A stretch of DNA of 64,000 nt from Trypanosoma brucei (GCA_000002445.1 CP000071.1:2417191-2481190), one strand, 5' to 3'; positions 12,834 to 37,570 are shown, numbered from the stretch's first letter. Notes: a model not told the origin generated them from the sequence alone. Translations and numbers: made by a program.

Positions 12834-13940
12834 GTGAATGTCCAAAGCTGTTGTTGCACACAAGTTAATAACATCCGCTTCGCCGTTAACACTCCGTACA
12901 CATTTCAGGCTCGTCGTGGGAATCGGACATGTAGGTTTATACGCGTGCCTGACTGTTACGCATTGCACCAACCCCCAAATTTACGTTTGGTTGACTAGGA
13001 AGTTAGGGTTGAAACTAGTAGGAAAGTAATGGCAAACACGGCTCTGCTGGAGCGAGAATATGCGCTACCACCGATGGGCGAGCTGTGCTTAGCGACCGCA
13101 AGCAGCGGCGGCGCTGCAACCGTTACGCTTCTTGCTCATAGTGTCGGTGAAAGTCTGTAACCGCGCGCTAGTGCTTTTTTGACAGAGTTGTTTCCAGGTG
13201 TGCGTTACCCTAATTATTTTTTTACGTGCTTCCTGTAGCTTAAACACCTAGCTCTTCTTCCTGATAGTCGCTACGGAGATCATGCTCTTCATCGGATGAA
13301 ATCGTCGCTGTAGTCCACTGAAAGAGGCGGCACATCAAAAGGCAGTTGCAATGAACGGCTTATATGAAACACTCTCGTTAACGCAGGGAAAAAGTTGTTG
13401 CTATAAGAATGTTTGCTACTCTACTTACTCAAATACACGGTAAGATTAGCCCAAGTTGTCAATGCCAATATCTCAGTGTCACCACCTCTTTCACGGATAC
13501 AAAACTTTCACTTCTCATATTAAGGTTTCGCAGTCGATCTCACCGCCACCAGATGTCACCAATAAGAAAATACTCCCCTAGTTCTATACATGCGCCCTAA
13601 TTTCTGCCACACATTCTACTAATTTTGTTGTTTCGTTCCTTCTCTTATCCTTATTGCTTCAGGGTTTGTGTAGGTAAAGAAGTGTCATGACGTGATGTGT
13701 ATTGGCTGCGTGTATTTGAAGCCAGACGCTGGTGAAGACTGACAGCTTATAGTCGGTAAGAACTGTTAGTTTACTATACGTGTGGGTTAACAGTAACTAT
13801 CCCCTCCTTCTGTTGCCGTTTCATGGTTCGATGGCGTAGAGAAATTAACTGTGCGTTGTTATACTGACAGTGCTTCTATTGTTGCAGTGGGATTTTGTTT
13901 TCTTGCGATGTGAGCAGCATTACACTTTGCTGCTTTCCCT

Positions 13941-13999
13941 TTTTCCAATGCACATGTTCACCTTTCGTGTTTAATTGCTTGTTATCACAATTCCAATAG
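13941..13999 (+). promoter_or_regulatory. Putative spliced-leader acceptor region (polypyrimidine tract plus AG) for the A-type AAT copy. It is repeated upstream of the second A-type copy at about 22180-22238.
   Basis: A pyrimidine-rich run (ccctttttccaatgcacatgttcacctttcgtgtttaattgcttgttatcacaattccaatAG) ends in AG at 13998-13999, 37 nt upstream of the ATG at 14036. Confidence 0.3.
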
Positions 14000-14035
14000 G
14001 TTAGGTCACATTATTCCTTGCGTAGTGGAAGTGAA

Positions 14036-15418
14036 ATGCGAGCCACCAAAAAGCATCCGAATGATGGAAAGGGAGCCACTACCGATCCATTTGTTGACGG
14101 CAGCGATCCAATTCCTTCTGAGGTCGCTGCTTTCGATCCTTTGCAGCAGGAACATGTTGATGTGGTAAAGGAAGTGAAACCCTCGCTTTTCGCCGTACTT
14201 CTTGAGAAGTTTATTCCCCATGGTGGATTGTGGTCCTGTGCCCTGAACCTGGCCTCTGCTACATTGGGTGCTGGCATTTGCTCACTGCCTGCAGGTTTCA
14301 ATTTGAGTGGGATTGTTATGTCCTGCATTTACCTTGTTTGCGTTGCGGTTGGCACGGTGTACTCTCTTAATCTTCTTGCAAAGGTTGCAGTGAAGACGGG
14401 ATCGCGTAATTACGGAGAAGCTGCCAAAGCAGTGATGGGTCCACTTGCTGGTTACTACACGGCAGCGCTTATGATAGTGATGTGTTTTGGCGGCTCCGTT
14501 GCTTACATCATCATTATTGGTATCATTTTGAAGGCTGTGCTCAATCGTGATGGTGTTCCGGAATATTTGAAATCAGAAAGTGGTAATCGGCTAATGACAT
14601 CCATGGTGTGGTTGGTGATTATCTTGCCTATGTGCATTCCCAAGCAGGTTAATTCATTGCGCCACTTATCCTTTGTGGGTGTGATGTTTATTGTGTATTT
14701 TTCATGTGTTGTTATTGGCCATTCCATTAATAAGATCATTAATGAGGGTGTCGCTGATGGCATCGTGTACATGCGCACTGGAAATAGCGCTTTAGATGGC
14801 TTATCACTATTTCTCTTCTCATTTATCTGCCAGCCGAACGCATTTGAAATATTCCGTGAGATGAAACACCGGTCGCCGCAACGCTTCACAATATATGGTA
14901 CTGTCGGCATGTCAATGTGTGCTGTGCTTTACTTCCTGGTTGGTTTATTTGGTTATTTGGAGTTTGGAGGGGATGCCATTGACACAGTGCTGTCTCTATA
15001 TGATCCAGGTGAGAATGTTGCCGTTGCAATTGCGTACATTGGGGTTGCTGCCAAGGTTTGTGTTGCCTTTGCTTTGCACATCATACCAATGCGTGATGCA
15101 CTGTACCATTGTACGGGTTGGCATGTTGATACTGTACCGTACTGGAAGCATTCCCTCATTGTGACGTCTATTACTTTAGCGGCTCTACTAATGGGACTCT
15201 TCATTCCGAAAGCATCCACTGTTTTTGGTCTCGTTGGTGCTTTCTGTGGCGGTCATATCGGACTTGTGTTGCCTCCGTTGTTCTACATGTACTCAGGTGG
15301 CTTCACGAGGGAAAAAGTTGGTAATATTGATTTCTTTGGCACTTATCTCCTTCTTTTTGTTGGTGTTGTGGCTGTTGTATTTGGCACGGTTTCAACAATA
15401 TACAACACGGTGCCGTAG
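14036..15418 (+). CDS. Amino acid transporter (Aa_trans / kinetoplastid AAT family), A-type copy 1, 460 aa.
   Basis: The track start at 14018 is TTG and the first ATG is at 14036 (MRATKKHPNDGKG...). It has a hydrophilic N-terminus followed by about 11 hydrophobic segments. Conserved motifs: FIPHGGLWSCALNLASATLGAGICSLP and MYSGGFTREKVGN. It is near-identical to the copy at 22275. Confidence 0.85.
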   Translation: MRATKKHPNDGKGATTDPFVDGSDPIPSEVAAFDPLQQEHVDVVKEVKPSLFAVLLEKFIPHGGLWSCALNLASATLGAGICSLPAGFNLSGIVMSCIYLVCVAVGTVYSLNLLAKVAVKTGSRNYGEAAKAVMGPLAGYYTAALMIVMCFGGSVAYIIIIGIILKAVLNRDGVPEYLKSESGNRLMTSMVWLVIILPMCIPKQVNSLRHLSFVGVMFIVYFSCVVIGHSINKIINEGVADGIVYMRTGNSALDGLSLFLFSFICQPNAFEIFREMKHRSPQRFTIYGTVGMSMCAVLYFLVGLFGYLEFGGDAIDTVLSLYDPGENVAVAIAYIGVAAKVCVAFALHIIPMRDALYHCTGWHVDTVPYWKHSLIVTSITLAALLMGLFIPKASTVFGLVGAFCGGHIGLVLPPLFYMYSGGFTREKVGNIDFFGTYLLLFVGVVAVVFGTVSTIYNTVP

Positions 15419-16175
15419 TATGATGATGATTTCTACGCGGGTATGTTCTTGGTGCACACATACTTTATTTTTTATCCATAGGTATTGCTTGTGTATATCC
15501 ACATGCGCAAATATATATTTATATATTTGTACCGTGTAATATTTAATGGGTTGTGATTTCTTTCATTTTCTTTGCAGTAGCAATATTTCTATGGATCTTC
15601 ATCTTTCGGTTGCTCCCACATCTTGTCAGTGATTTATCACTATTATTACATTCTTTTGTGAAAATTATATATGTCGTTTCTTTATGATAACTGAATCCAG
15701 TTATTCATTTGTCGTACTCCCTTTTGTTTCCATTTTCCCCAAAAGGAGAGAGCACACACAACGGTTGGTGTCCCTTTCCACACTTGTTGTTATTGTTATC
15801 ATTATTATCGGGCTAAACTTAGCATTATTCCTCCCCTAGTGTCACTGCTGCTGTCAACTGGGTTATTGTTGTATCTCTTCTCTTTTGTCAGTCTTAGTGA
15901 TTCAACTGTTGGAGGAAAAGATCAGGGGCAAGACGTTGTGGTAACGTGTAACGAGATCGGATATCTGTGTTTGAGTTACTGGTTCCGTTTTTTGTTTGCA
16001 GTACACATCTCTTTGTTTGTCGACTTCCTATTGACTTCCAGCACTTTGTATAGAGTTTGCTACAGATGTATTTATTATCTTCTTTCTGGTATGTCTTTCA
16101 AAATCTCTTCGTTTTCACTTGGATGTTATATTACTATCTTGAAGCGTAAGGTTCGTATCATAATACGCTACCAAT

Positions 16176-17561
16176 ATGACGAATCAATCCAGCGGGGGCA
16201 ATGACAGGGGCCGTCGTGACACGGATCCTTTTGCTCACGCTGGTGATGTAAAATTATCTTCTGACGCTATTGCACTTGATGTAACTCAGAAAGGCCAGGA
16301 TGATGTGGTAAAGGAAGTGAAACCCTCGCTTTTCGCCGTACTTCTTGAGAAGTTTATTCCCCATGGTGGATTGTGGTCCTGTGCCCTGAACCTGGCCTCT
16401 GCTACATTGGGTGCTGGCATTTGCTCACTTCCGACTGGTTTCAATTTGAGTGGGATTGTTATGTCCTGCATTTACCTTGTTTGCGTTGCGGTTGGCACGG
16501 TGTACTCTCTTAATCTTCTTGCAAAGGTTGCAGTGAAGACGGGATCGCGTAATTACGGAGAAGCTGCGCGGATGGTGATGGGTCCACTTACTGGTTACTA
16601 CGCGGCAGCGCTTATGATAGCGATGTGCTTTGGAGGTAACGTTGCTTACATCATCATTATTGGTATCATTTTGAAGGCTGTGCTCAATCGTGATAGTGTT
16701 CCGGAATATTTGAAATCAGAAAGTGGTAATCGGCTAATGACATTCATGGTGTGGTTGGTGATTATCTTGCCTATGTGCATTCCCAAGCGGGTTAATTCAT
16801 TGCGCCACTTATCCTTTGTGGGTGTGATCGCTATTGCTTATTTCGCATTTTTCATTGTTGGCCATTCCATTAATAAGATCATTAATGAGGGTGTCGCTGA
16901 TGACATCGTGTACATGCGCACTGGAAATAGCGCTTTAGATGGCTTATCACTATTTCTCTTCTCATTTATCTGCCAGTCGAACGCATTTGAAATATTCCGT
17001 GAGATGAAACACCGGTCGCCGCAACGCTTCACAATATATGGTATTGTGGGTGTTGTGATGTGTGCTGTGCTTTACTTCCTGGTTGGTTTATTTGGTTATT
17101 TGGAGTTTGGAGGGAAATCTGTTGACACAGTGCTGTCTCTATATGATCCAGGTGAGAATGTTGCCCTTGCAATTGCGTATATTGGAATTGCAATTAAAAT
17201 AACAGTTGCTCATGCTCTACACTCTATTCCCATACGTGACGGTCTGTACCATTGTGTGGGTTGGCATGTTGATACTGTACCGTATTGGAAGCATGTTGTT
17301 GTGGTTGTAACTATTAACTTTACCTCACTGATTATTGGACTCTTCATTCCGAAAGCATCCACTGTTTTTGGTCTCGTTGGTGCTTTCTGTGGTGGTCATA
17401 TCGGACTTGTGTTGCCTCCGTTGTTCTACATGTACTCAGGTGGCTTCACGAGGGAAAAAGTTGGTAATATTGATTTCTTTGGCACTTATCTCCTTCTTTT
17501 TGTTGGTGTTGTGGCTGTTGTATTTGGCACGGTAACGACCATAGCCGGTGCACTGTCTTGA
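16176..17561 (+). CDS. Amino acid transporter (AAT family), B-type copy 1, 461 aa. This is the most diverged member of the array.
   Basis: ATG at 16176 (MTNQSSGGNDRGRRDTDP...). It has the same core as the A-type copies. It carries unique substitutions (VIAIAYFAFFIVGH; GKSVDT) and a unique C-terminus (TVTTIAGALS). Confidence 0.85.
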   Translation: MTNQSSGGNDRGRRDTDPFAHAGDVKLSSDAIALDVTQKGQDDVVKEVKPSLFAVLLEKFIPHGGLWSCALNLASATLGAGICSLPTGFNLSGIVMSCIYLVCVAVGTVYSLNLLAKVAVKTGSRNYGEAARMVMGPLTGYYAAALMIAMCFGGNVAYIIIIGIILKAVLNRDSVPEYLKSESGNRLMTFMVWLVIILPMCIPKRVNSLRHLSFVGVIAIAYFAFFIVGHSINKIINEGVADDIVYMRTGNSALDGLSLFLFSFICQSNAFEIFREMKHRSPQRFTIYGIVGVVMCAVLYFLVGLFGYLEFGGKSVDTVLSLYDPGENVALAIAYIGIAIKITVAHALHSIPIRDGLYHCVGWHVDTVPYWKHVVVVVTINFTSLIIGLFIPKASTVFGLVGAFCGGHIGLVLPPLFYMYSGGFTREKVGNIDFFGTYLLLFVGVVAVVFGTVTTIAGALS

Positions 17562-19789
17562 CACATTAGATTGCAAATGGAGCGTCTATGGATGTTTAAC
17601 CTTTATGAATCCTCCTGTAGGAATTTGTGTGTGTAAATGAGAATTTCTTGATTCAATAAATAATTCTTTTGATAGAACCAAAAAAAGTAGTAATTAATTA
17701 AATGTGGTAAATATCTTTTCTTATATTTTTGTTTTCATTCCTTTGGCTGCCTGCACGGCGTCGGTAATAATTGTAATTTGTACCGGTGCTGTTGGGACAG
17801 GTTGGTAGTTTGGCCTCCAGCTCAACCTGTAAGGGTGAGGGGGAATAGCCATGGTGATGGCATTAATTTTAACTTAAGGAGAAAGGGACCAACTGAGCAT
17901 AAAGGGCAACTTTAAGGAAATATATAAGGTTTAGGCAATATATACACGCAGGTATGTCTTGGGTGTAGAAACCCATGTGACTTATTTGCGTGACGTTTTT
18001 GCTTTCATTTTTCATTTTTTTTTTTTGGAAACCCTGCGTTACCAATGGTTTTGGATATGGGATTACATGGTATTATTTTGTACGAATTTCCTTATATAAA
18101 TACACTGTCTTCTCCAATATTTTACAGCTGCCTGCCAGAGGGTGTAAGTTCTAGAAAGAAAAAAATATGTTTTATGATATCAAAGATGCTGCCTCATACA
18201 CGATCGATTTTCAGAGAGAGAGGGTAATAAATGTCACGGCTTTTATGGAATCTGTTCGCCAAAAGGGACCAGCATCTTTTTCTTTCGACTTTGAACCAGT
18301 ACAGAACCCGAGGGATGCATACCACGTGGATGGAATTCTGACAATCGAGGATGAAAACCCTAATGGTGTTTACTTTGACCGCGAACAGAAAATGGATCTG
18401 GGATCGCTGAGGCAATTGATGGTAAGTTTTGTGTTGCCTAGAAACTCAGATTTCCTAAAGGCTTTTTGAAGAGGCGAGAGAAGCAATGAATTTGGGGGCT
18501 TTAATATTTCCCTACCTATACTCCACCACAAGGGAAAAAACCAACACAACGGAGAAAGTTACACTGGAGGACGGTAACAACTACTACTACTCCTACCCTT
18601 TGTCCGCCAATGAGTTACCCGACACGGACGGGAATAGTACGACCCTTACGCGCAGAAAAGTCGACAGCAGCTCAACGTATGAGAGGAGCCTTTCAAGAGA
18701 TCTGGGAAATGTCAAATGGAAATTAAAAACATGCAACAAGGTGGTCGTCGGTGAACGACGTCAAGGTTATTCTAGCTTCTACGCACGATTCGTATATTGT
18801 GACACTGGTTTCAGAAGAAAACAAAGTAGCAAAAAGGATGTGGACACACACAACTTGGGACAAACAGAAAGGGTCCATAATCCGAAGGTTCTATGCGTTT
18901 GCAGACAAACACGGACTACCGGCTGTCGAAACGACAATCCCCTTGTTTATTGTAAGTTTGCAACTGGCAAAGAGCACCACCATACAGTACACAAGGACAC
19001 TACTATCATTACTAGCCGCAGAGCATACACCAGCGCGAATGTATTTGTAGCCGGACTATGCAGAATGACAGGGGGAAATACCATAAAACAGGCTTGACCC
19101 ATGTTGCGTTGGGAGCTCGATCTCGTATGCGACACTTTAACACTGGAGCGGGATCGAGTAGCTTTAAGACTATCCTGAATCACAGCTAGCAGATGGGGAG
19201 AAATAGCAGAGCTACAACAAGAGAATTTTGTGCTCCATCCACAAGACAAAAAAGATGATGCCATAGTGGTAAACTGAGGAGCACTCCCAAAGACATTCAA
19301 AAGCGACACACACAGAACCGCGAAGTATGTGGTGATAAGCGGAGAAGATGCAGGAAGGATCCGAAGGGTAATCAGGGAAATGGAGGGTAGTGAAAAGCTC
19401 ATAGCCATTACAACGAAGGGAATGGAAACAATATTCTGCCCATTTGGGGTGACTGCACATTCAATAAAGAGAGGGGCTTTGGCACACCCAGAGTTGGCAT
19501 TAGTGGCGTAAAAACACACGCCCTCGATTCAATATTATTAACACAATTGGGAAAGCACACAAACCCTCAGGAGCTTCCTCGAAGCACGGTAGGACGCTAT
19601 CTGTGTCTATGGACCGCCACCATCAACAAGTCGGAGTTGCGCATGACTGTGCTGATGTAAAACCCCTGAAAAGGGGAAAAACAGATTTACCATGGGATAT
19701 GCCAGATAATTCCCGCCAAGCAGGGATAGCTTTAGTAACCAGGAGTAAAACATTTTCAAGGGCATAGCATCACACGACGTTCGCAAGGA

Positions 19790-21300
19790 CCACGGGTGGC
19801 GTCTAAGGAAGAAGAGATGACATTGCCTCTTCAGGAAGTAAATGTGGGCACATTGTATTTAGAACGGGTACGAAGACGAATGAAGGAGGAGACGCGGCAA
19901 CGGTTTGAGAAGGTATGGAACTTGAAGATTGCCACAGAAGGAAAATCGAAAGAAAGAGACAGGGAGTCACATTTGCGGATTGCGGAAAAAGACGCTGTAA
20001 TCATAAAAGAAGCAGGTGTTATAAGCCAACCTTCGGATCTTCCTACAAAGGGATGGGTCATACCTTTTTCAGTTGTGGAGTAGAAGTCGGCAGGAAAAAG
20101 ACGCCGATTTATTGCTTGGTCCAAGGTAAAAAATGCCAAAAATGATTACGAGGCCGAAGTCCCGTTGGGATATATATCCCAATATCTAAGTGCAGTTTAT
20201 GATGAATCCGCAGGGTTGTTTGATTTAAAGGCTTCTTTTTTTCCGGATGAACATGCCACAAAAGACATTTGAGTGTGTCTCCGCTGTTGCACAGAAAAGT
20301 GGGGAACTCGTAGAATTGAATCAACTCCAATTGGTTAATAAATGAAGTCATGAAATTGTAAAGACATCACGAGAGTTTTGGCAGGAGATCCTGGGGCAGC
20401 GAAACCACAATATGCGGCCACCAACGAATTGAGGGCGCACACATGGATCGACAACATCCGTATCAGTAGACCACACAAAACGGTCAAGGAATGGGGGGAC
20501 CACATTGCTAAAAATATGAAAGAGTGCGGAGTAAATGTTGATGAGCAAAGAAATGGCAACACGTTACGAATTTATCGGGTTTTTATTTGAGCATGACAAA
20601 CAGACGGTTTTGTTGAATGCAAAGACAATGCGGCGGATTCGAGAATCGGCTCCACTCGAGGTAGCGACCATACAACAGATGGAGAGAGTTGTATTCTGCA
20701 TGATATATGCGGCTGGGGTTAGGGGAGAACCACTTTTTTCTTACTATACTTTCTTTTAAATGATGCGTTGGCGTTTATCTCGCCTAAATATGGGTTTGGT
20801 AAACCCCTCCGATTTGGTTTTTCTGCCAAAAAGTGTATTGAAGCTGGAGAAGCAGTGGATGAGCGAGTTGTTGAAAAATGTGCCAGTGGTTCCACCACAG
20901 GCTCAGCCCACTACGGCCACGCTGGTGACAGATGCCTCCGTGCAGGGATGGGGAGGGATGTCATTTAAAGGTACAGGAGAGATTATAATAGCAGGAGGCT
21001 CCTGGGAAACGGCACCTCATATGATATCATAAGGAGAAGTGCGAGCGATTCAATTCGCATTGTTAGCGATTCGGGGGCGTTTCGATGGGCCATTGCACAT
21101 ATGTGTGGATAACACTGCTGTAATGCATATTATGAGAAAAGGCAACACGCATTCAAGCGCCCTAGTGCGATAGGCATCTGCAAAAAACAGGATATTACGA
21201 CAAGAACGGATAAGTGCCATATGGAGCTACGTACATTCCGGGATAAATCCGGCCGATGGGGCGTCTCGAGGGTTACTTGCCATGGGGTAGGACTTAGCGA
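19790..21300 (+). mobile_element. Degenerate retrotransposon remnant (RT/RNase H-like; ingi/DIRE-like or VIPER-like). Boundaries are uncertain.
   Basis: A chain of short ORFs interrupted by frame shifts and stops (19796-20083, 20378-20590, 20535-20759, 20760-21032) ends in a clear RNase H signature. It sits in a block (17562-21822) that is absent from the other array units. Confidence 0.5.
20760..21290 (+). pseudogene. RNase H domain remnant of a retroelement pol, disrupted by two in-frame stops.
   Basis: One frame reads ...LVTDASVQGWGGM..GGSWETAPHMIS*GEVRAIQFALLAIRGRFDGPLHICVDNTAVMHIMRKGNTHSSALVR*ASAKNRILRQERISAIWSYVHSGINPADGASRGLLAMG*. This matches the RNase H motifs (TDAS/GxG; E..A.L.A; DN..V; H.G...AD.LA). 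The stops are TAA at 21030-21032 and TAG at 21171-21173. Confidence 0.6.
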
Positions 21301-22274
21301 AGGAAAGCGCGGGAGGCGGGATGAGAACGCTTTCAGCTCTTCCACATAGTTAGTAAATTATCGTTTAAGATCATAGTTTGTGTAGGATGATGAGGAACGC
21401 TTACTGTTTCTTCAGCATGATAGTTATTTCCTATATATATATTTCTATGAAGTAAAGGGAAGGTGAACACAAAGCTATTCGGTTTTCAGTTGAAAAAATA
21501 AATGTATTGTATTAAGGTTCTTTTCGGATACTGTGATGACGTATGTTTTTCCCTCCTTGTGCTAAATTTCTTTTTCGCTGGTATTCCTCTTTCCATAGAT
21601 TCGTGGCTTCCTACCGTTTGGAACGATTACGGACCCCTACACACAATAAGTAAATTTCTTATATATTTCCTTTATATATTTCCTTTATATATATTCTTTA
21701 TATATTTGTTTTTGATTTCTTTGGAGTTTTTAAGTCTATTTCTCGTTTGTTTTTTTGTATTCCTGTCTCGCATTTGCCATGTTGTCATTATGTCTGTAAC
21801 CGAGATTGTCGTCGAGTGATGCCTATACATGCGCCCTAATTTCTGCCACACATTCTACTAATTTTGTTGTTTCGTTCCTTCTCTTATCCTTATTGCTTCA
21901 GGGTTTGTGTAGGTAAAGAAGTGCCATGACGTGATGTGTATTGGCTGCGTGTATTTGAAGCCAGACGCTGGTGAAGACTGACAGCTTATAGTCGGTAAGA
22001 ACTGTTAGTTTACTATACGTGTGGGTTAACAGTAACCATCCCCTCCTTCTGTTGCCGTTTCATGGTTCGATGGCGTAGAGAAATTAACTGTGCGTTGTTA
22101 TACTGACAGTGCTTCTATTGTTGCAGTGGGATTTTGTTTTCTTGCGATGTGAGCAGCATTACACTTTGCTGCTTTCCCTTTTTCCAATGCACATGTTCAC
22201 CTTTCGTGTTTAATTGCTTGTTATCACAATTCCAATAGGTTAGGTCACATTATTCCTTGCGTAGTGGAAGTGAG

Positions 22275-23657
22275 ATGCGAGCCACCAAAAAGCATCCGAA
22301 TGATGGAAAGGGAGCCACTACCGATCCATTTGTTGACGGCAGCGATCCAATTCCTTCTGAGGTCGCTGCTTTCGATCCTTCGCAGCAGGAGCATGTTGAT
22401 GTGGTAAAGGAAGTGAAACCCTCGCTTTTCACCGTACTTCTTGAGAAGTTTATTCCCCATGGTGGATTGTGGTCCTGTGCCCTGAACCTGGCCTCTGCTA
22501 CATTGGGTGCTGGCATTTGCTCACTGCCTGCAGGTTTCAATTTGAGTGGGATTGTTATGTCCTGCATTTACCTTGTTTGCGTTGCGGTTGGCACGGTGTA
22601 CTCTCTTAATCTTCTTGCAAAGGTTGCAGTGAAGACGGGATCGCGTAATTACGGAGAAGCTGCCAAAGCAGTGATGGGTCCACTTGCTGGTTACTACACG
22701 GCAGCGCTTATGATAGTGATGTGCTTTGGCGGCTCCGTTGCTTACATCATCATTATTGGTATCATTTTGAAGGCTGTGCTCAATCGTGATGGTGTTCCGG
22801 AATATTTGAAATCAGAGAGTGGTAATCGGCTAATGACATCCATGGTGTGGTTGGTGATTATCTTGCCTATGTGCATTCCCAAGCAGGTTAATTCATTGCG
22901 CCACTTATCCTTTGTGGGTGTGATGTTTATTGTGTATTTTTCATGTGTTGTTATTGGCCATTCCATTAATAAGATCATTAATGAGGGTGTCGCTGATGGC
23001 ATCGTGTACATGCGCACTGGAAATAGCGCTTTAGATGGCTTATCACTATTTCTCTTCTCATTTATCTGCCAGCCGAACGCATTTGAAATATTCCGTGAGA
23101 TGAAACACCGGTCGCCGCAACGCTTCACAATATATGGTACTGTCGGCATGTCAATGTGTGCTGTGCTTTACTTCCTGGTTGGTTTATTTGGTTATTTGGA
23201 GTTTGGAGGGGATGCCATTGACACAGTGCTGTCTCTATATGATCCAGGTGAGAATGTTGCCGTTGCAATTGCGTACATTGGGGTTGCTGCCAAGGTTTGT
23301 GTTGCCTTTGCTTTGCACATCATACCAATGCGTGATGCGCTGTACCATTGTACGGGTTGGCATGTTGATACTGTACCGTACTGGAAGCATTCCCTTATTG
23401 TGACGTCTATTACTTTAGCGGCTCTACTAATGGGACTCTTCATTCCGAAAGCATCCACTGTTTTTGGTCTCGTTGGTGCTTTCTGTGGTGGTCATATCGG
23501 ACTTGTGTTGCCTCCGTTGTTCTACATGTACTCAGGTGGCTTCACGAGGGAAAAAGTTGGTAATATTGATTTCTTTGGCACTTATCTCCTTCTTTTTGTT
23601 GGTGTTGTGGCTGTTGTATTTGGCACGGTTTCAACAATATACAACACGGTGCCGTAG
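22275..23657 (+). CDS. Amino acid transporter (AAT family), A-type copy 2, 460 aa.
   Basis: First ATG at 22275 (the track TTG is at 22257). It is near-identical to 14036-15418 apart from a few substitutions (L->S in DPSQQ; A->T in LFTV). Confidence 0.85.
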   Translation: MRATKKHPNDGKGATTDPFVDGSDPIPSEVAAFDPSQQEHVDVVKEVKPSLFTVLLEKFIPHGGLWSCALNLASATLGAGICSLPAGFNLSGIVMSCIYLVCVAVGTVYSLNLLAKVAVKTGSRNYGEAAKAVMGPLAGYYTAALMIVMCFGGSVAYIIIIGIILKAVLNRDGVPEYLKSESGNRLMTSMVWLVIILPMCIPKQVNSLRHLSFVGVMFIVYFSCVVIGHSINKIINEGVADGIVYMRTGNSALDGLSLFLFSFICQPNAFEIFREMKHRSPQRFTIYGTVGMSMCAVLYFLVGLFGYLEFGGDAIDTVLSLYDPGENVAVAIAYIGVAAKVCVAFALHIIPMRDALYHCTGWHVDTVPYWKHSLIVTSITLAALLMGLFIPKASTVFGLVGAFCGGHIGLVLPPLFYMYSGGFTREKVGNIDFFGTYLLLFVGVVAVVFGTVSTIYNTVP

Positions 23658-24414
23658 TATGATGATGATTTCTACGCGAGTATGTTCTTGGTGCACACAT
23701 ACTTTATTTTTTATCCATAGGTATTGCTTGTGTATATCCACATGCGCAAATATATATTTATATATTTGTACCGTGTAATATTTAATGGGTTGTGATTTCT
23801 TTCATTTTCTTTGCAGTAGCAATATTTCTATGGATCTTCATCTTTCGGTTGCTCCCACATCTTGTCAGTGATTTATCACTATTATTACATTCTTTTGTGA
23901 AAATTATATATGTCGTTTCTTTATGATAACTGAATCCAGTTATTCATTTGTCGTACTCCCTTTTGTTTCCATTTTCCCCAAAAGGAGAGAGCACACACAA
24001 CGGTTGGCGTCCCTTTCCACACTTGTTGTTATTGTTATCATTATTATCGGGGTAAACTTAGCATTATTCCTCCCCTAGTGTCACTGCTGCTGTCAACTGG
24101 GTTATTGTTGTATCTCTTCTCTTTTGTCAGTCTTAGTGATTCAACTGTTGGAGGAAAAGATCAGGGGCAAGACGTTGTGGTAACGTGTAACGAGATCGGA
24201 TATCTGTGTTTGAGTTACTGGTTCCGTTTTTTGTTTGCAGTACACATCTCTTTGTCTGTCGACTTCCTATTGACTTCCAGCACTTTGTATAGAGTTTGCT
24301 ACAGATGTATTTATTATCTTCTTTCTGGTATGTCTTTCAAAATCTCTTCGTTTTCACTTGGATGTTATATTACTATCTTGAAGCGTAAGGTTCGTATCAT
24401 AATACGCTACCAAT

Positions 24415-25800
24415 ATGACGAATCAATCCAGCGGGGGCAATGACAGGGGCCGTCGTGACACGGATCCTTTTGCTCACGCTGGTGATGTAAAATTATCTTC
24501 TGACGCTATTGCACTTGATGTAACTCAGAAAGGCCAGGATGATGTGGTAAAGGAAGTGAAACCCTCGCTTTTCACCGTACTTCTTGAGAAGTTTATTCCC
24601 CATGGTGGATTGTGGTCCTGTGCCCTGAACCTGGCCTCTGCTACATTGGGTGCTGGCATTTGCTCACTTCCGACTGGTTTCAATTTGAGTGGGATTGTTA
24701 TGTCCTGCATTTACCTTGTTTGCGTTGCGGTTGGCACGGTGTACTCTCTTAATCTTCTTGCAAAGGTTGCAGTGAAGACGGGATCGCGTAATTACGGAGA
24801 AGCTGCGCGGATGGTGATGGGTCCACTTACTGGTTACTACGCGGCAGCGCTTATGATAGCGATGTGCTTTGGAGGTAACGTTGCTTACATCATCATTATT
24901 GGTATCATTTTGAAGGCTGTGCTCAATCGTGATGGTGTTCCGGAATATTTGAAATCAGAAAGTGGTAATCGGCTAATGACATCCATGGTGTGGTTGGTGA
25001 TTATCTTGCCTATGTGCATTCCCAAGCAGGTTAATTCATTGCGCCACTTATCCTTTGTGGGTGTGATGTTTATTGTGTATTTTTCATGTGTTGTTATTGG
25101 CCATTCCATTAATAAGATCATTAATGAGGGTGTCGCTGATGGCATCGTGTACATGCGCACTGGAAATAGCGCTTTAGATGGCTTATCACTATTTCTCTTC
25201 TCATTTATCTGCCAGTCGAACGCATTTGAAATATTCCGTGAGATGAAACACCGGTCGCCGCAACGCTTCACAATATATGGTACTGTCGGCATGTCAATAT
25301 GTGCTGTGCTTTACTTCCTGGTTGGTTTATTTGGTTATTTGGAGTTTGGAGGGGATGCCATTGACACAGTGCTGTCTCTATATGATCCAGGTGAGAATGT
25401 TGCCCTTGCAATTGCGTACATTGGGGTTGCAATTAAAATAACAGTTGCTCATGCTCTACACGCTATTCCCATACGTGACGGTCTGTACCATTGTGTGGGT
25501 TGGCATGTTGATACTGTACCGTATTGGAAGCATGTTGTTGTGGTTGTAACTATTAACTTTACCTCACTGATTATTGGACTCTTCATTCCGAAAGCATCCA
25601 CTGTTTTTGGTCTCGTTGGTGCTTTCTGTGGTGGTCATATCGGACTTGTGTTGCCTCCGTTGTTCTACATGTACTCAGGTGGCTTCACGAGGGAAAAAGT
25701 TGGTAATATTGATTTCTTTGGCGCTTATCTCCTTCTTTTTGTTGGTGTTGTGGCTGTTGTATTTGGCACGGTTTCAACAATATACAACACGGTGCCGTAG
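24415..25800 (+). CDS. Amino acid transporter (AAT family), mosaic B/A/B/A copy, 461 aa.
   Basis: ATG at 24415. The N-terminus is B-type (to about 24885). The middle is A-type (MFIVYFSCVVIGH, TVGMSICAVLY, GGDAIDT; about 24930-25360). Then it is B-type again (VAIKITVAHALHAIPIRDGLYHCVGW...VVVVVTINFTSLIIG; about 25390-25580). The C-terminus and downstream sequence are A-type (TVSTIYNTVP). Confidence 0.85.
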   Translation: MTNQSSGGNDRGRRDTDPFAHAGDVKLSSDAIALDVTQKGQDDVVKEVKPSLFTVLLEKFIPHGGLWSCALNLASATLGAGICSLPTGFNLSGIVMSCIYLVCVAVGTVYSLNLLAKVAVKTGSRNYGEAARMVMGPLTGYYAAALMIAMCFGGNVAYIIIIGIILKAVLNRDGVPEYLKSESGNRLMTSMVWLVIILPMCIPKQVNSLRHLSFVGVMFIVYFSCVVIGHSINKIINEGVADGIVYMRTGNSALDGLSLFLFSFICQSNAFEIFREMKHRSPQRFTIYGTVGMSICAVLYFLVGLFGYLEFGGDAIDTVLSLYDPGENVALAIAYIGVAIKITVAHALHAIPIRDGLYHCVGWHVDTVPYWKHVVVVVTINFTSLIIGLFIPKASTVFGLVGAFCGGHIGLVLPPLFYMYSGGFTREKVGNIDFFGAYLLLFVGVVAVVFGTVSTIYNTVP

Positions 25801-26550
25801 TATGATGATGATTTCTACGCGGGTATGTTCTTGGTGTACACATACTTTATTTCTAGGTATTGCTTGTGTATATCCACATGCGCAAATATTTATTTATATA
25901 TTTGTACCGTGTAATATTTAATGGGCTGTGATTTCTTTCATTTTCTTTGCAGTAGCAATATTTCTATGGATCTTCATCTTTCAGTTGCTCCCACATCTTG
26001 TCAGTGATTTATCACTATTATTACATTCTTTTGTGAAAATTATATATGTCGTTTCTTTATGATAACTGAATCCAGTTATTCCTTTGTCGTACTCCCTTTT
26101 GTTTCCATTTTCCCCAAAAGGAGAGAGCACACACAACGGTTGGCGTCCCTTTCCACACTTGTTGTTATTGTTATCATTATTATCGGGGTAAACTTAGCAT
26201 TATTCCTCCCCTAGTGTCACTGCTGCTGTCAACTGGGTTATTGTTGTATCTCTTCTCTTTTGTCAGTCTTAGTGATTCAACTGTTGGAGGAAAAGATCAG
26301 GGGCAAGACGTTGTGGTAACGTGTAACGAGATCGGATATCTGTGTTTGAGTTACTGGTTCCGTTTTTTGTTTGCAGTACACATCTCTTTGTTTGTCGACT
26401 TCCTATTGACTTCCAGCACTTTGTATAGAGTTTGCTGCAGATGTATTTATTATCTTCTTTCTGGTATGTCTTTCAAAATCTCTTCGTTTTCACTTGGATG
26501 TTATATTACTATCTTGAAGCGTAAGGTTCGTATCATAATACGCTACCAAT

Positions 26551-27933
26551 ATGACGAATCAATCCAGCGGGGGCAATGACAGGGGCCGTCGTGACACGGA
26601 TCCTTTTGCTCACGCTGGTGATGTAAAATTATCTTCTGACGCTATTGCACTTGATGTAACTCAGAAAGGCCAGGATGATGTGGTAAAGGAAGTGAAACCC
26701 TCGCTTTTCACCGTACTTCTTGAGAAGTTTATTCCCCATGGTGGATTGTGGTCCTGTGCCCTGAACCTGGCCTCTGCTACATTGGGTGCTGGCATTTGCT
26801 CACTTCCGACTGGTTTCAATTTGAGTGGGATTGTTATGTCCTGCATTTACCTTGTTTGCGTTGCGGTTGGCACGGTGTACTCTCTTAATCTTCTTGCAAA
26901 GGTTGCAGTGAAGACGGGATCGCGTAATTACGGAGAAGCTGCGCGGATGGTGATGGGTCCACTTGCTGGCTACTACGCGGCAGCGCTTATGATAGCGATG
27001 TGCTTTGGAGGTAACGTTGCTTACATCATCATTATTGGTATCATTTTGAGAGCTCTATTTAGTCGTGATGGTGTTCCGGAATATTTGAAATCAGAGAGTG
27101 GTAATCGGCTAATGACATCCATGGTGTGGTTGGTGATTATCTTGCCTATGTGCATTCCCAAGCAGGTTAATTCATTGCGCCACTTATCCTTTGTGGGTGT
27201 GATGTTTATTGTGTATTTTTCATGTGTTGTTATTGGCCATTCCATTAATAAGATCATTAATGAGGGTGTCGCTGATGGCATCGTGTACATGCGCACTGGA
27301 AATAGCGCTTTAGATGGCTTATCACTATTTCTCTTCTCATTTATCTGCCAGTCGAACGCATTTGAAATATTCCGTGAGATGAAACACCGGTCGCCGCAAC
27401 GCTTCACAATATATGGTACTGTCGGCATGTCAATGTGTGCTGTGCTTTACTTCCTGGTTGGTTTATTTGGTTATTTGGAGTTTGGAGGGGATGCCATTGA
27501 CACAGTGCTGTCTCTATATGATCCAGGTGAGAATGTTGCCGTTGCAATTGCGTACATTGGGGTTGCTGCCAAGGTTTGTGTTGCCTTTGCTTTGCACATC
27601 ATACCAATGCGTGATGCGCTGTACCATTGTACGGGTTGGCATGTTGATACTGTACCTTACTGGAAGCATTCCCTTATTGTGACGTCTATTACTTTAGCGG
27701 CTCTACTAGTGGGACTCTTCATTCCGAAAGCATCCACTGTTTTTGGTCTCGTTGGTGCTTTCTGTGGTGGTCATATCGGACTTGTGTTGCCTCCGTTGTT
27801 CTACATGTACTCAGGTGGCTTCACGAGGGAAAAAGTTGGTAATATTGATTTCTTTGGTACTTATCTCCTTCTTTTTGTTGGTGTTGTGGCTGTTGTACTT
27901 GGTACTGGATCGGCAGTATATTATGCTGTGTAG
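26551..27933 (+). CDS. Amino acid transporter (AAT family), mosaic B/A copy with a unique C-terminus, 460 aa.
   Basis: ATG at 26551. The N-terminal third is B-type. The rest is A-type from about 27070. It has a unique cluster at 27047-27062 (RALFS instead of KAVLN) and a unique terminus (VVLGTGSAVYYAV). Confidence 0.8.
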   Translation: MTNQSSGGNDRGRRDTDPFAHAGDVKLSSDAIALDVTQKGQDDVVKEVKPSLFTVLLEKFIPHGGLWSCALNLASATLGAGICSLPTGFNLSGIVMSCIYLVCVAVGTVYSLNLLAKVAVKTGSRNYGEAARMVMGPLAGYYAAALMIAMCFGGNVAYIIIIGIILRALFSRDGVPEYLKSESGNRLMTSMVWLVIILPMCIPKQVNSLRHLSFVGVMFIVYFSCVVIGHSINKIINEGVADGIVYMRTGNSALDGLSLFLFSFICQSNAFEIFREMKHRSPQRFTIYGTVGMSMCAVLYFLVGLFGYLEFGGDAIDTVLSLYDPGENVAVAIAYIGVAAKVCVAFALHIIPMRDALYHCTGWHVDTVPYWKHSLIVTSITLAALLVGLFIPKASTVFGLVGAFCGGHIGLVLPPLFYMYSGGFTREKVGNIDFFGTYLLLFVGVVAVVLGTGSAVYYAV

Positions 27934-28398: not shown

Positions 28399-28612
28399 GT
28401 TCTATACATGCGCCCTAATTTCTGCCACACATTCTACTAATTTTGTTGTTTCGTTCCTTCTCTTATCCTTATTGCTTCAGGGTTTGTGTAGGTAAAGAAG
28501 TGTCATGACGTGATGTGTATTGGCTGCGTGTATTTGAAGCCAGACGCTGGTGAAGACTGACAACTTATAGTCGGTGAGAACTGTTAGTTTACTATACGTG
28601 TGGGTTAACGGT
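28399..28612 (+). repeat. Partial third copy of the array upstream element U, with no gene downstream.
   Basis: About 210 nt (gttctatacatgcgccctaatttctgccacacattctac...tgggttaac) are near-identical to 13581-13800 and 21823-22040. Similarity ends abruptly at about 28612. Confidence 0.85.
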
Positions 28613-29558
28613 AATTAAAGGAATTTCTTAAAAGTTTGTGTGTTTTTTTTTGTAATGGCACGTGGCCGGAGGTTTGATGCGAAGTGGTGTCTGGGGTTGG
28701 GCGCAGCTGTTGCAAAATGAGTTACAAGTTATTTCCTTGTCTGTAATTGCGTTGATTTATACTGGAATGGTGACCTGATGCTTTTGTGAGTTTATGATGT
28801 GTTTGGATGTGCTGCGTCTGTTGTTGGATCGCTGAAGTGTAGTTCCTTTAGTGGCGACGTTGAGGTTTGATTTGTGGTTATGTGGTCTCTTTTGTAGCTT
28901 TGTGGTGTTTATGTAGTTTTTTTTCATCTTTTAGCTCTTATTTGCTTCGAGATTCAGTGGTCAGTGAAGCAGTAGTTTTCGAATTTATATCTGTAGCCTT
29001 TCTGTGTCGCTGGGGTTATTGTTTTTATAGTTGAGTTGGATGGTTGTTGTTGTTGCAAGTTTGTGATTAATTGAGTTACATGTTCTCTAGGATCTTATTG
29101 AGAGATATTTAAAGGTTAGTTCGTGCTCTTAATTTAGAGTAAATGAAGATTATGGGGATTGTCTAGTGGCTTTTCAGTGCGTCATACAGCATTTACATAA
29201 TCGGCCGTCTGCTTATCTTTTTTTTTTTTGTGTGTGTGTGGTAGAACCTAATGGAGATATTATTTTTTGCACATTGGTTTTGTGACTTTAGTTTTGGATC
29301 ATCATGCGAGGTATCCCTCCATATTTAGTTGTTTCTTATTATTGCCATTTGCTGTGTGCTTGTCCTCACATCGTTAAGCCATGGATTTGTTATCTGCCGT
29401 TGTCGATTGTGATTTTGTTGAAAGCAGGTGCGTTATTGCTTCCAATCCATTTCTCTTTTTTTCCCTCATCCGTTTCAATGACACACACGTAAGGGATACA
29501 TATTAGTCCCGTTTGTCTTACTTTTGTTCCTCCCTTCTCACCTTTGCAGCTCACTTTT

Positions 29559-35284: not shown

Positions 35285-36154
35285 AGTGATATTTGAATGC
35301 TTTTGCATTTCACTATTTTTATTTTTGTTTTGTTTTGTGTTTTTTTTTTTCATTTGGTAGTCATTTCGGGCTTATGTTTATTTATTTGTAACGCCCTGCT
35401 CATTTCGTTGAGTTTACCCCCCGTTACACTGGATTGTCGTTTCCCTTCAATTTCGTTTTTCACTCTTATTCGTCGTGTAACTTTTGCTACTTTACTAATG
35501 ATTATTCTCGCTTCAGTTTGATGCTGTCCGTAAACAATGTTTGTCATTTTTGTTATTATTGTTGTTGTTATGTTTATACGTTTAGGTTGCAATGGAAAAT
35601 GCAGCAATGATACAACCGATAGCATGTGCCTTGCAGAGTTGAGTGCCAACCATTTTTCGAGGTTCAACGCCTTCCCCCCTCTTTTTGTTACTTTCTCTCC
35701 GTTAGTATTTTGTTTCTCTCTCCCTTTTTTTAAACTGCTACGAGGTTACCATCTGCAATCGTTGTATTACTACTATATATATATATACATTTAAAATGTA
35801 CAACAGCGTAGGGAAGAAAAGAGAGAGAGGAACTAAAACAACAAAAAAAATATGTAGAGTGTATCGGAATAGAAACGAAAGAAAGAAGCACAAAAAAAGA
35901 AAAAAGAAACCCGTCGCCATATAAATGATAAAAAGGCGTAAATAAACGAACAAATAATCAAAGGGATTTGTTTATGTATTTTAATTGTCCAATTGTTTTA
36001 TTTTCCATCTCACCACCTTTAGATCCTTTTTTCTTTTTCTTTTTTTCTTCTTCTATGATATTTGTTTCATTTACTGCAGGTGAGGTTTCTGTTAGTAATT
36101 GGTGATTTCAGCCAGCGACCAACTAAATCAGACCCTAAGCTGTTATTGGACCTA

Positions 36155-37570
36155 ATGAGTAATGTCCGTGGAAATATAACCCCCGCCGTTGTTTATGCTT
36201 CCAATGAGCCGAATGCTCTTAATGCCTCGGATGATGGCATTAAAAACTATGAGGCCTACGAAGACATTCAATCAAACAATTCAGAATCTAAATTTGCTCC
36301 ATTTTCCAAACTGAGCAAAAAAATTGCCGCCGTCATTCCTCCTGGAGGGATTTTTGCCAGCGCCTTTAACATCGCGGCCACGACGTTGGGCGCCGGCATC
36401 TTTGGTTTGCCGTCAACCGCCAATGGAAGCGGACTTGTGATGGGAATATTATATCTCGTCATAATTAATTGCATGACCATATATTCCATGTATAATCTCG
36501 CCCTTGCAGCCGAACGTTCTAAAGCACTCACATATGAAGGCGTTACATTTGTGGTGTTGGGGCGCTGGGCTGCATATGCCATCGCTGCTGTTCGAGCATT
36601 TGATGGCTTTACGAGTTGTATTGCCTACGTGATTTCAGTGGGAGATATTTTCTCTTCTATTTTGAAGGGAACCGATGCACCTGAGTTCTGGAAGGGAAAT
36701 ACGGGCAACCGACTTTTGACCGCGCTTCTATGGCTCTGTTGTATGCTTCCACTTGTGATACCGCGACATGTGGATTCACTTCGTCATGTTTCCACCTGTG
36801 CCGTTACTTTCATGGTGTATTTTGTCATTGTGATTGTTGTGCACTCGTGTCTAAATGGGCTTCCGGAGAATATTAAGGATGTTAGTGTTGGAAAGAGTGA
36901 TACAGCTGCTATCATTCTCTTTAATAGCGGGAATGCAGCTGTTGAAGGATTGGGAGTATTTATGTTCTCATACACGTGCCAGGACACGGCGTATGAAATA
37001 TATATGGACATGAAGGATCGCTCCGTGCGTAAGTTCGTTATTTCATCCGCTATCGCGATGTGTATGTGTACCGTGTTGTATATACTCACCGTATTTTTCG
37101 GTTACATGGACTTTGGCCGTGATGTTACCGGTTCAATTTTGCTCATGTACGATCCCGTGAATGAACCTGCGGTGATGGTTGGTATGATTGGTGTGCTTGT
37201 GAAGCTGATCGCCTCATATGCGCTGCTCGCTATGGCGTGTCGTAATGCGTTATACAGCATTGCAGGAAAGAATGCGGATGTATTGCCCTTTTGGAAACAT
37301 TGTGCCTCAGTTGTAACCTTATCTGTAGCGGCACTGGTTTTGGGTCTCTTCATCCCAAAGGTTAATACGGTTCTTGGTTTTGCTGGTTCCATTACTGGTG
37401 GCTCACTTGGTTATATTTTCCCTTCGCTACTTCTTATGTACTCGGGTGGCTTCACATGGCAACGCGTTGGGCCTTTTCATTATCTCGTAGCGTACGGGTT
37501 GTTAATTTCAGGTGTTGTCGGCGTTGTTTTTGGTACCGGTGCCACCATTTGGGGCACAATTGTTGGCTAA
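36155..37570 (+). CDS. Amino acid transporter (AAT family), divergent paralog, 471 aa.
   Basis: The track start at 36062 is TTG and the first ATG is at 36155 (MSNVRGNITP...). Motifs: IPPGGIFASAFNIAATTLGAGIFGLP and LLLMYSGGFTWQRVGPFHY. It has about 11 hydrophobic segments. Confidence 0.8.
   Translation: MSNVRGNITPAVVYASNEPNALNASDDGIKNYEAYEDIQSNNSESKFAPFSKLSKKIAAVIPPGGIFASAFNIAATTLGAGIFGLPSTANGSGLVMGILYLVIINCMTIYSMYNLALAAERSKALTYEGVTFVVLGRWAAYAIAAVRAFDGFTSCIAYVISVGDIFSSILKGTDAPEFWKGNTGNRLLTALLWLCCMLPLVIPRHVDSLRHVSTCAVTFMVYFVIVIVVHSCLNGLPENIKDVSVGKSDTAAIILFNSGNAAVEGLGVFMFSYTCQDTAYEIYMDMKDRSVRKFVISSAIAMCMCTVLYILTVFFGYMDFGRDVTGSILLMYDPVNEPAVMVGMIGVLVKLIASYALLAMACRNALYSIAGKNADVLPFWKHCASVVTLSVAALVLGLFIPKVNTVLGFAGSITGGSLGYIFPSLLLMYSGGFTWQRVGPFHYLVAYGLLISGVVGVVFGTGATIWGTIVG

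What the first reader, a model, noticed from the sequence alone, without database searches (positions are those of the whole stretch)
24415..25800. Mosaic B/A/B/A transporter copy: precise conversion tracts
Within one 1.4 kb gene the diagnostic A-type and B-type blocks switch three times. It is B-type to about 24885. It is A-type from about 24930 to 25360 (MFIVYFSCVVIGH...GGDAIDT). It is B-type again from about 25390 to 25580 (VAIKITVAHALHAIPIRDGLYHCVGW...VVVVVTINFTSLIIG). It is A-type from about 25760 through the stop and into the downstream I element. Conversion tracts of about 200-450 nt can be read off directly. This is a good natural example of tract length in kinetoplastid homologous recombination.
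Basis: seen in the sequence. Interest (0 to 1): 0.6.

Follow-up and report, generated by a model that had tools for sequence, protein, structure and literature searches.

The report
Mosaic amino-acid transporter gene, T. brucei
One gene in a tandem array of Trypanosoma brucei amino-acid transporter genes really is a patchwork of two older gene types, but the patchwork is old, is shared with other T. brucei subspecies, and comes from recombination already described for this same array.

Summary
Gene 24415-25800 is identical to XP_847648, the fourth copy of the T. brucei TREU927 chromosome 8 AAT9 array, so by numbering Tb927.8.8250. It is B-type (like copy 2) to 24878, A-type (like copies 1 and 3) over 24934-25360, B-type over 25405-25575, and A-type from 25773 through the stop and the 750-nt spacer. 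The 168 informative sites form 8 runs against 69.6 expected (0 of 200,000 permutations).

It is not an assembler chimera. Copies 99% identical with the same pattern occur in T. b. gambiense DAL972 (1 copy) and T. b. equiperdum (6 copies). They share two variants that no other TREU927 copy has.

- The mosaic predates the subspecies split.
- The "B" states of the middle block occur only in copy 2, so it is unclear when, and in which copy, that exchange happened.
- The 3' switch runs into a whole A-type spacer, so it looks like an unequal-crossover or repeat-unit junction, not a short tract.
- Tract lengths can only be bracketed.

The blocks are islands of old divergence (dS about 1.1) in sequence that is otherwise homogenised (dS 0-0.04). 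Jackson (2007, 2010) already reported gene conversion in this array and mosaics in T. brucei arrays. Interest is low.

The parts
24415..25800 (+). Mosaic amino-acid transporter gene c4. It is identical to XP_847648/AAZ13582, the fourth copy of the AAT9 array (Tb927.8.8250 by numbering). 461 aa, intact ORF, Aa_trans fold.
   Evidence: Exact protein match; PF01490 E = 1.2e-49; diagnostic-site map.
24415..24878 (+). B-type 5' part. It comprises the very divergent N-terminal block 24415-24540 and block 2 (24669-24878), and is identical to c2 at all 71 diagnostic substitution sites (24425-24878). It is continuous with the B-type upstream spacer.
   Evidence: Upstream 450 nt is 99.3% identical to c2 and 99.6% to c5, and about 49% to c1/c3.
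24879..24933 (+). First switch interval (B to A). These 55 nt are identical between the A and B types.
   Evidence: no A/B difference between 24878 and 24934.
24934..25360 (+). A-type middle block (block 3). It has 2-3 mismatches to c1/c3 and 30 to c2. The exception at 25216 looks like a change private to c1/c3, because the other copies scored in the other two genomes carry the c2/c4/c5 base there.
25361..25404 (+). Second switch interval (A to B). These 44 nt are identical between types.
25405..25575 (+). B-type block 4. It spans two predicted transmembrane segments and is an island of old divergence (A vs B dS 1.14, dN 0.27). It contains an A-type micro-patch at 25419-25426 that is shared with the gambiense and equiperdum mosaic copies.
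25576..25772 (+). Third switch interval (B to A). This 197-nt stretch is almost invariant in all copies.
   Evidence: dS 0.04, dN 0.
25773..26550 (+). A-type C-terminal codons, stop, and the complete 750-nt A-type intergenic spacer ('I element') leading to c5.
   Evidence: The spacer is 97.9% identical to those after c1/c3 and about 48% to the sequence after c2/c5.
14036..15418 (+). c1, A-type reference copy (XP_847645).
16176..17561 (+). c2, the only 'pure B' copy (XP_847646). It is the positional counterpart of c4 in the segmental duplication.
22275..23657 (+). c3, A-type copy (XP_847647), nearly identical to c1.
26551..27933 (+). c5 (XP_847649), another mosaic. It has a B-type 5' part, A-type blocks 3-4 and its own third type of 3' end.
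   Evidence: Its conversion was published in PMC1810246 Table 3.
21823..25772 (+). Second copy of the segmental duplication [U - A gene - spacer - B-headed gene]. It is 98.7% identical to 13584-17533 and ends exactly where the c2 and c4 3' ends diverge.

Best explanation
The window is T. brucei brucei TREU927 chromosome 8. The gene is the fourth copy of the five-copy AAT9 amino-acid transporter array (AAAP/Aa_trans family); by numbering it is Tb927.8.8250.

The array holds two old paralogue types, A and B. Repeated non-allelic homologous recombination has homogenised most of the coding sequence. It left a few islands of old divergence: the N-terminus, 24669-24878, small clusters within 24934-25360, 25405-25575, and the C-terminus with its 3' flank. 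The same exchanges shuffle these islands between copies, so nearly every copy in three T. brucei genomes is a different A/B combination.

c4 is one such combination, B-B-A-B-A. It arose before the T. brucei subspecies separated and has been inherited since, and it is amplified to six copies in T. b. equiperdum.

Inferred steps:
- The internal A block (bracket 427-526 nt) is a gene-conversion patch laid on a B-type gene. This probably happened once, in an ancestor of all B-headed copies except c2.
- The 3' B-to-A switch lies in the invariant 197 nt at 25576-25772. It is an unequal-crossover or duplication junction that joined a B-type gene body to an A-type gene end plus spacer. This created the extra repeat unit that carries c5.

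Shown directly: the mosaic pattern and its statistics, conservation across assemblies, flank identities, and block-wise dS. Inferred: the order, direction and number of events.
For: - Identity: exact matches of c1-c5 to XP_847645-XP_847649 of TREU927. The AAT9 locus is listed as starting at Tb927.8.8220 with 5 copies. A phosphopeptide in the N-terminal region (S28) is listed for Tb927.8.8230/8250/8260, which fits c2, c4 and c5 having identical N-termini.
- Mosaic: 8 runs against 69.6 expected, 0 of 200,000 permutations.
- Old islands in a homogenised background: A vs B dS is 1.14 in block 4 and pS is 0.73 at the C-terminus. dS is 0-0.04 in 24541-24668 and 25576-25772.
- Conservation: G5 and E3-E8 show the same B/A/B/A string. 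They differ from c4 at only 14-16 of 1386 nt, against 52 for c2 and 141-145 for c1/c3.
- Shared variants: two of the three sites that are private to c4 within TREU927 (25299 A, 25462 G) are shared with those copies.
- Background divergence: the c4-G5 divergence is about 1%, against the published 99.2% mean coding identity between the subspecies.
- Combinatorial shuffling: G4 has an A head with B block 4. G3 has a B head, A middle and B tail. c5, G6 and E9 have a third tail type.
- Junction nature of the 3' switch: the downstream 750 nt is the A-type spacer, 97.9% identical. The segmental duplication 13584-17533 / 21823-25772 ends at the switch. Copy number is 5, 6 and 9 in the three genomes.
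- Precedent: gene conversion was detected in this array by GENECONV and SISCAN. Mosaics are common in T. brucei tandem arrays.
Against: - The order and direction of events cannot be recovered from three genomes.
- The 'B' states of 24934-25296 occur only in c2. An alternative is that c2, rather than the c4 lineage, acquired an unusual block.
- Apart from that block the two duplicated segments are about 99.4% identical. Taken alone, that would suggest a recent conversion in c4 or c2, not an old one. Reconciling it with the conserved mosaic requires ongoing homogenisation of the flanks.
- No sequencing reads were available, so the TREU927 copy itself was confirmed only indirectly.
- DAL972 contigs were ordered against the TREU927 reference, though they were assembled from their own reads.
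Confidence: 0.76

Rival explanations
1. Recent, gene-specific events. A pure B gene (a duplicate of c2) received two fresh A-type conversion tracts in TREU927's recent ancestry, so tract lengths can be read directly.
For: c4 is the positional counterpart of c2 in a 3.95-kb duplication. That duplication is 98.7% identical overall and about 99.4% outside block 3. The A-type donors c1, c3 and c5 lie adjacent and differ from c4's A block at only 2-3 sites for c1/c3.
Against: The same mosaic, with the same major boundaries and shared derived variants, exists in DAL972 and equiperdum, so it predates TREU927. The 3' A-type segment extends through the whole spacer. The fine patches at 25354-25360, 25405 and 25419-25426 differ or are shared in ways that imply layered events.
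Confidence: 0.07
2. c2 is the odd copy. The ancestral B gene already had the 'A-like' sequence in 24934-25296, and c2 later acquired its unique clustered differences. These would come from a diverged allele or a lost copy by conversion, or from local rapid evolution. c4 would then carry essentially one real switch, the 3' junction.
For: The c2 states at 24934, 24983, 25028, 25068-25096 and 25283-25296 occur in none of 19 other copies in three genomes. At several of these positions the outgroup transporters (T. grayi, T. theileri, T. vivax, Leishmania) resemble the A form. Examples are FIVYF..CV and MTS. dS for the whole block is only 0.08.
Against: At other positions the outgroups resemble c2: R in KRVN, S in RDS, K in GGKSV. 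Both forms therefore look like old lineages. Twelve changes in 29 nt and eight in 14 nt are too dense for recent point mutation. No close donor outside the array was found: the next-best protein hit is 53% identical and from another species. This reading still needs a conversion event, only in a different copy.
Confidence: 0.15
3. Assembly artefact. The assembler stitched reads from A and B paralogues into a chimeric consensus.
For: Tandem arrays are hard to assemble, and Jackson 2007 raises this caveat. No reads could be inspected here.
Against: Two independent assemblies from other subspecies contain the same mosaic at 99% identity. c4 carries variants at 25299 and 25462 that are absent from every other TREU927 copy but present in those copies, which stitching cannot produce. 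The flanks are colinear and the ORF is intact.
Confidence: 0.02

Closest known systems
Gene conversion in the AAT9Tb array (Jackson 2007, BMC Evol Biol 7:26, PMC1810246)
   Same: It is the same five-copy array, listed as starting at Tb927.8.8220, with the same A (copies 1 and 3) versus non-A grouping. A significant partial conversion between copies was detected by GENECONV and SISCAN: 327 bp, alignment positions 739-1066, donor copy 3, recipient copy 5.
   Different: The published event concerns copy 5. The B/A/B/A composition of copy 4, the uniqueness of copy 2's middle block and the comparison with equiperdum are not in the text I read. That paper could not test concerted evolution for AAT9 because it lacked homoeologous loci.
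Sequence mosaics and concerted evolution in T. brucei tandem gene arrays (Jackson 2007, PMC1855330; Jackson et al. 2010, PMC2854126)
   Same: Variant duplicates in arrays exchange segments and produce mosaics. Conversions often span start or stop codons and UTRs. Subspecies differ in which mosaics they carry and in copy number.
   Different: Here the particular mosaic is conserved between subspecies rather than specific to one. Neighbouring copies (G4 vs c3, G3 vs c2) do show subspecies-specific mosaics.
Hybrid genes from unequal crossing-over in tandem arrays (for example haemoglobin Lepore, opsin arrays); from general knowledge
   Same: The gene has a 5' part and upstream flank of one paralogue and a 3' end and downstream flank of the other. 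The switch lies inside a shared identical stretch, and array copy number changes.
   Different: c4 also carries an internal patch, so at least one further exchange of conversion type is superimposed.
Segmental gene conversion forming mosaic VSG genes in T. brucei; from general knowledge
   Same: The organism and the homologous-recombination machinery are the same, and the result is again patchwork genes assembled from diverged family members.
   Different: VSG mosaics form somatically during infection under immune selection. The transporter mosaic is a germline-stable, inherited chromosomal-core gene.

Membership tests
AAAP / Aa_trans amino-acid transporters (Pfam PF01490) | Significant full-length match to the Aa_trans profile | tested here: met
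   E = 1.2e-49, 169.6 bits against a cut-off of 25.6; residues 65-456 cover profile positions 4-409 of 410.
AAAP / Aa_trans amino-acid transporters (Pfam PF01490) | Multi-pass membrane topology (about 10-11 hydrophobic segments) | tested here: inconclusive
   A Kyte-Doolittle scan finds about 9-10 hydrophobic peaks. No dedicated topology predictor or structure model was run.
AAAP / Aa_trans amino-acid transporters (Pfam PF01490) | Demonstrated amino-acid transport | not testable with these tools
   No functional data for AAT9 copies were found. The only report is a shared N-terminal phosphopeptide.
T. brucei AAT9 tandem array (starts at Tb927.8.8220, 5 copies) | Sequence identity to the annotated TREU927 chromosome 8 proteins, in array order | tested here: met
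   c1-c5 are exact matches to XP_847645-XP_847649 on a 2,481,190-bp record.
Non-allelic (interparalogue) gene-conversion mosaic | Discordant sites cluster in runs far beyond chance | tested here: met
   8 runs against 69.6 expected, z = -11.7, 0 of 200,000 permutations.
Non-allelic (interparalogue) gene-conversion mosaic | A patch bounded on both sides by recipient-type sequence, with a candidate donor in the same array | tested here: met
   A block 24934-25360 is flanked by B-type 24425-24878 and 25431-25575. Candidate donors c1/c3 differ at 2-3 sites.
Non-allelic (interparalogue) gene-conversion mosaic | Non-reciprocal transfer with identifiable donor and recipient | tested here: inconclusive
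   The direction is ambiguous. The B states of block 3 are unique to c2 and outgroup polarisation is mixed.
Unequal crossing-over / repeat-unit junction (hybrid gene) | Upstream flank of one parent type, downstream flank of the other, with the switch in shared identical sequence | tested here: met
   Upstream is 99.3% identical to c2's. Downstream is 97.9% identical to the c1/c3 spacer and about 48% to c2's downstream. The switch lies within the invariant 25576-25772.
Unequal crossing-over / repeat-unit junction (hybrid gene) | Array copy-number variation between related genomes | tested here: met
   5 copies in TREU927, 6 in DAL972 and 9 in equiperdum, with 2.14-kb spacing.
Assembly chimera | The mosaic is absent from independent assemblies and has no variants of its own | tested here: not met
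   The mosaic is present in DAL972 G5 and equiperdum E3-E8. Variants 25299 A and 25462 G are shared with them.

The most novel reading that the evidence does not exclude
The block shuffling may not be neutral by-product. The divergent islands lie over predicted transmembrane segments, for example block 4 over two helices and blocks 2b and 3a over others. They could be functional modules that recombination reassorts to generate transporters with different substrate or kinetic properties. Under this reading, selection keeps the islands from being homogenised and favours particular combinations. One candidate is the B-B-A-B-A type, which is conserved in three subspecies and amplified six-fold in T. 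b. equiperdum.
Probability: 0.15. Interest if true: 0.5.

Novelty: already known. Interest (0 to 1): 0.15.

Why it matters
It matters little beyond a clean worked example. It shows how a trypanosome tandem array evolves: most of the sequence is homogenised, a few old divergent islands are reshuffled among copies, and copy number changes by unequal crossing-over.

It is a caution for annotation and proteomics. The AAT9 copies share long identical stretches, so peptides and short reads cannot be assigned to single copies.

It is also a caution for anyone who wants to read conversion-tract lengths from a single genome. Inherited, layered events and unit junctions can look like fresh tracts.

Tried and rejected
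- Exact-product look-ups for c4 and c2, to find further independent assemblies, returned nothing. The TREU927 chromosome is evidently not indexed there, so there is no Logan or short-read evidence either way.
- I searched the supplement of PMC1855330 for this array. The AAT9 event is not listed there; it appears only in PMC1810246 Table 3.
- A donor outside the array for c2's unique block was considered and judged unlikely. After the array members, the next protein hit is 53% identical and from another species.
- Outgroup polarisation of the block states gave mixed signals and does not settle direction.
- Pfam scans of ORFs in the 4.26-kb insert gave only weak hits below cut-off.
- The bacterial-style TTG starts listed for c1 and c3 (14018, 22257) were rejected in favour of the in-frame ATG at 14036/22275. 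The ATG versions match the database proteins exactly.

Full report
**What the window is**

All long ORFs lie on the + strand. The five paralogous transporter proteins encoded at 14036-15418 (c1), 16176-17561 (c2), 22275-23657 (c3), 24415-25800 (c4) and 26551-27933 (c5) are exact matches to consecutive proteins XP_847645-XP_847649 of Trypanosoma brucei brucei TREU927. They sit on a 2,481,190-bp record, chromosome 8.

Jackson (2007, PMC1810246) lists this as locus AAT9Tb, starting at Tb927.8.8220 with five copies. By numbering, c4 is then Tb927.8.8250. A 2026 phosphoproteome paper lists one peptide in the N-terminal region (S28) for Tb927.8.8230/8250/8260. That fits c2, c4 and c5 having identical N-termini. 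c4 is a full-length Aa_trans (PF01490) protein, E = 1.2e-49.

**Checking the observation**

I aligned the five CDS and used sites where c1 = c3 (type A) differ from c2 (type B). Labels along c4:

| c4 coordinates | Type | Sites |
|---|---|---|
| 24425-24878 | B | 71 |
| 24934-25142 | A | 16 |
| 25216 | B | 1 |
| 25283-25360 | A | 13 |
| 25405 | B | 1 |
| 25419-25426 | A | 3 |
| 25431-25575 | B | 47 |
| 25773-25800 | A | 16 |

That is 8 runs among 168 informative sites, against 69.6 expected (z = -11.7). None of 200,000 label permutations gave so few. After collapsing sites into 15-nt bins, 7 of 200,000 did.

The A-type 3' end continues into the spacer. 25801-26550 is 97.9% identical to the spacers after c1 and c3, and about 48% (unrelated) to the sequence after c2 or c5. 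The 450 nt upstream of c4 are 99.3% identical to those upstream of c2 and 99.6% to those upstream of c5.

**Array architecture**

A segment 13584-17533 is repeated at 21823-25772 with 98.7% identity. A 2.14-kb register shift also aligns 22397-25769 with 24540-27905 at 95.6%. The layout is therefore:

U - A(c1) - I - B(c2) - X - U - A(c3) - I - c4 - I - c5 - ... - U'

- I is the 750-757-nt spacer.
- U is a roughly 215-nt element: 13581-13799, 21823-22035 and 28399-28617.
- X is a 4.26-kb insert at 17562-21822.
- c4 is the positional counterpart of c2. The duplicated segment ends exactly where their 3' ends diverge.

**Is it an assembly chimera? No**

I fetched the orthologous arrays from T. b. 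gambiense DAL972 (FN554971.1; six copies, G1-G6) and T. b. equiperdum (CM010679.1; nine copies, E1-E9).

- Scored at the same diagnostic sites, G5 and E3-E8 have the same B/A/B/A string as c4.
- They differ from c4 at only 14-16 of 1386 nt. c2 differs at 52 and c1/c3 at 141-145.
- Five of those 14-16 differences are one small cluster, 25354-25360, which is B-type in G5 and E3-E8 and A-type in c4.
- Two of the three sites that make c4 unique within TREU927 (25299 A, 25462 G) are shared with G4, G5 and the E copies. Stitching A and B reads together cannot create them.
- The divergence between c4 and G5 is about 1%. The published mean coding identity between the two subspecies is 99.2%.
- c4 and G5 therefore behave as orthologues, and the mosaic predates the subspecies split.

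**What the blocks are**

Nei-Gojobori estimates between c1 and c2:

| Region | dS | dN |
|---|---|---|
| Block 4 (25405-25575) | 1.14 | 0.27 |
| 24541-24668 | 0.03 | 0 |
| 25576-25772 | 0.04 | 0 |
| Switch intervals 24879-24933 and 25361-25404 | 0 | 0.03-0.05 |

At the C-terminal codons pS is 0.73. The N-terminal 126 nt are barely alignable.

A and B are therefore old paralogues. Most of their coding sequence has been homogenised, which leaves islands of old divergence. The islands lie over predicted hydrophobic segments. Outgroup transporters suggest that B block 4 is the more derived form.

Across three genomes the islands occur in many combinations:
- G4 has an A head with B block 4.
- G3 has a B head, A middle and B tail.
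- c5, G6 and E9 have a third tail type.
- G2, E1, E2 and E9 have mixed block 2.

This is the picture of concerted evolution plus mosaic formation that Jackson described for T. brucei arrays.

Recombination between paralogues is the right class of mechanism. Four qualifications apply.

1. The pattern is inherited, not three fresh events in this gene. The 24878/24934 boundary is shared by nearly all B-headed copies.
2. The 'B' states at 24934-25296 are found only in c2 among 20 copies. Outgroup comparison is mixed: A-like at FIVYF..CV and MTS, c2-like at KRVN, RDS and GGKSV. Both forms look old. The likeliest history is a single A-over-B conversion in an ancestor of all B-headed copies except c2. 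I cannot exclude that c2 itself is the converted copy (I give this about 0.15).
3. The 3' switch is followed by the entire A-type spacer and then a B-headed gene. This is what an unequal crossover between a B gene and an A gene within the invariant 25576-25772 would produce. It would also add a repeat unit, and copy number does differ between the genomes at 5, 6 and 9.
4. Tract ends can only be placed inside invariant stretches. That gives brackets of 427-526 nt for the A block and 171-412 nt for the B block. Micro-patches at 25354-25360, 25405 and 25419-25426 show that further small exchanges are superimposed.

**Comparison with what is known**

Jackson (2007) ran GENECONV and SISCAN on this very array. 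He reported one event: 327 bp, positions 739-1066, donor copy 3, recipient copy 5, p = 7.9e-17 and 1.3e-18. My data reproduce the anomaly behind it, since c5 is A-type through blocks 3-4.

The companion paper and the gambiense genome paper establish that such arrays frequently contain mosaics, that conversions often cross stop codons into UTRs, and that single reads usually confirm the breakpoints.

The specific composition of copy 4 is not spelled out in the texts I read, but it is the same phenomenon in the same locus. I therefore rate it as already known, with low interest.

**Residual uncertainty**

- No TREU927 reads were available.
- Exact-product look-ups for further assemblies returned nothing.
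- The order and direction of events are inferred.
- The most novel reading not excluded is that the islands are functional modules reassorted under selection. The c4-type combination is conserved and is amplified six-fold in equiperdum. I give this about 0.15.

Noticed in passing
window 17562-21822: A 4.26-kb insert splits the array after c2. It holds only broken ORFs. One frame reads like a degenerate retroelement RNase H (..LVTDASVQGWGG..ICVDNTAV..INPADGASRG, about 20900-21300) and another like a tyrosine-recombinase motif (HSIKRGALAH), which suggests a decayed DIRS/VIPER-like element. The only Pfam support is weak (PF00336, E = 0.006, below cut-off). The insert is conserved at 94% at the same place in DAL972 and is absent from the equiperdum array.
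   Followed up: partly
window 26551-27933 (c5): c5 is itself a mosaic. It is B-type to about 27014 and then has a private 7-site patch at 27050-27062 (RALFS instead of KAVLN). Blocks 3-4 are A-type, and the C-terminus and 3' flank are a third type shared with G6 and E9. This corresponds to the conversion published for AAT9.5.
   Followed up: partly
L002/L005/L006 (T. b. equiperdum CM010679.1, 1464456-1496540): The equiperdum array has nine copies at uniform 2.14-kb spacing with no X insert. Six of them (E3-E8) are near-identical c4-type mosaics. E2, E4, E6 and E7 carry frameshifts that may be long-read indel errors.
   Followed up: partly
L001/L003 (T. b. gambiense FN554971.1), copies G3 and G4: The positional counterparts of TREU927 c2 and c3 are different mosaics in gambiense. 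G3 has a B head, A-type blocks 3-4 and a B tail. G4 has an A head, B-type block 4 and an A tail. These are subspecies-specific mosaics next to a conserved one.
   Followed up: partly
window 13581-13799, 21823-22035, 28399-28617: A roughly 215-nt element (98% identical between copies) lies upstream of each A-type gene and again about 465 nt downstream of c5. It marks the edges of the duplicated unit and is a plausible substrate for the segmental duplication.
   Followed up: no
window 14018 and 22257: The ORF lister starts c1 and c3 at an upstream TTG because it uses bacterial start rules. The in-frame ATG at 14036/22275 gives proteins identical to the database entries.
   Followed up: yes
window 36062-37570, 39343-40842, 42899-44344, 44869-46179: Further + strand ORFs of transporter-like size lie downstream of the array. 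The gambiense counterpart of the first is called Aa_trans (L003 19583-20998). They may include the AAT10 pair (Tb927.8.8290/8300), but I did not examine this.
   Followed up: no
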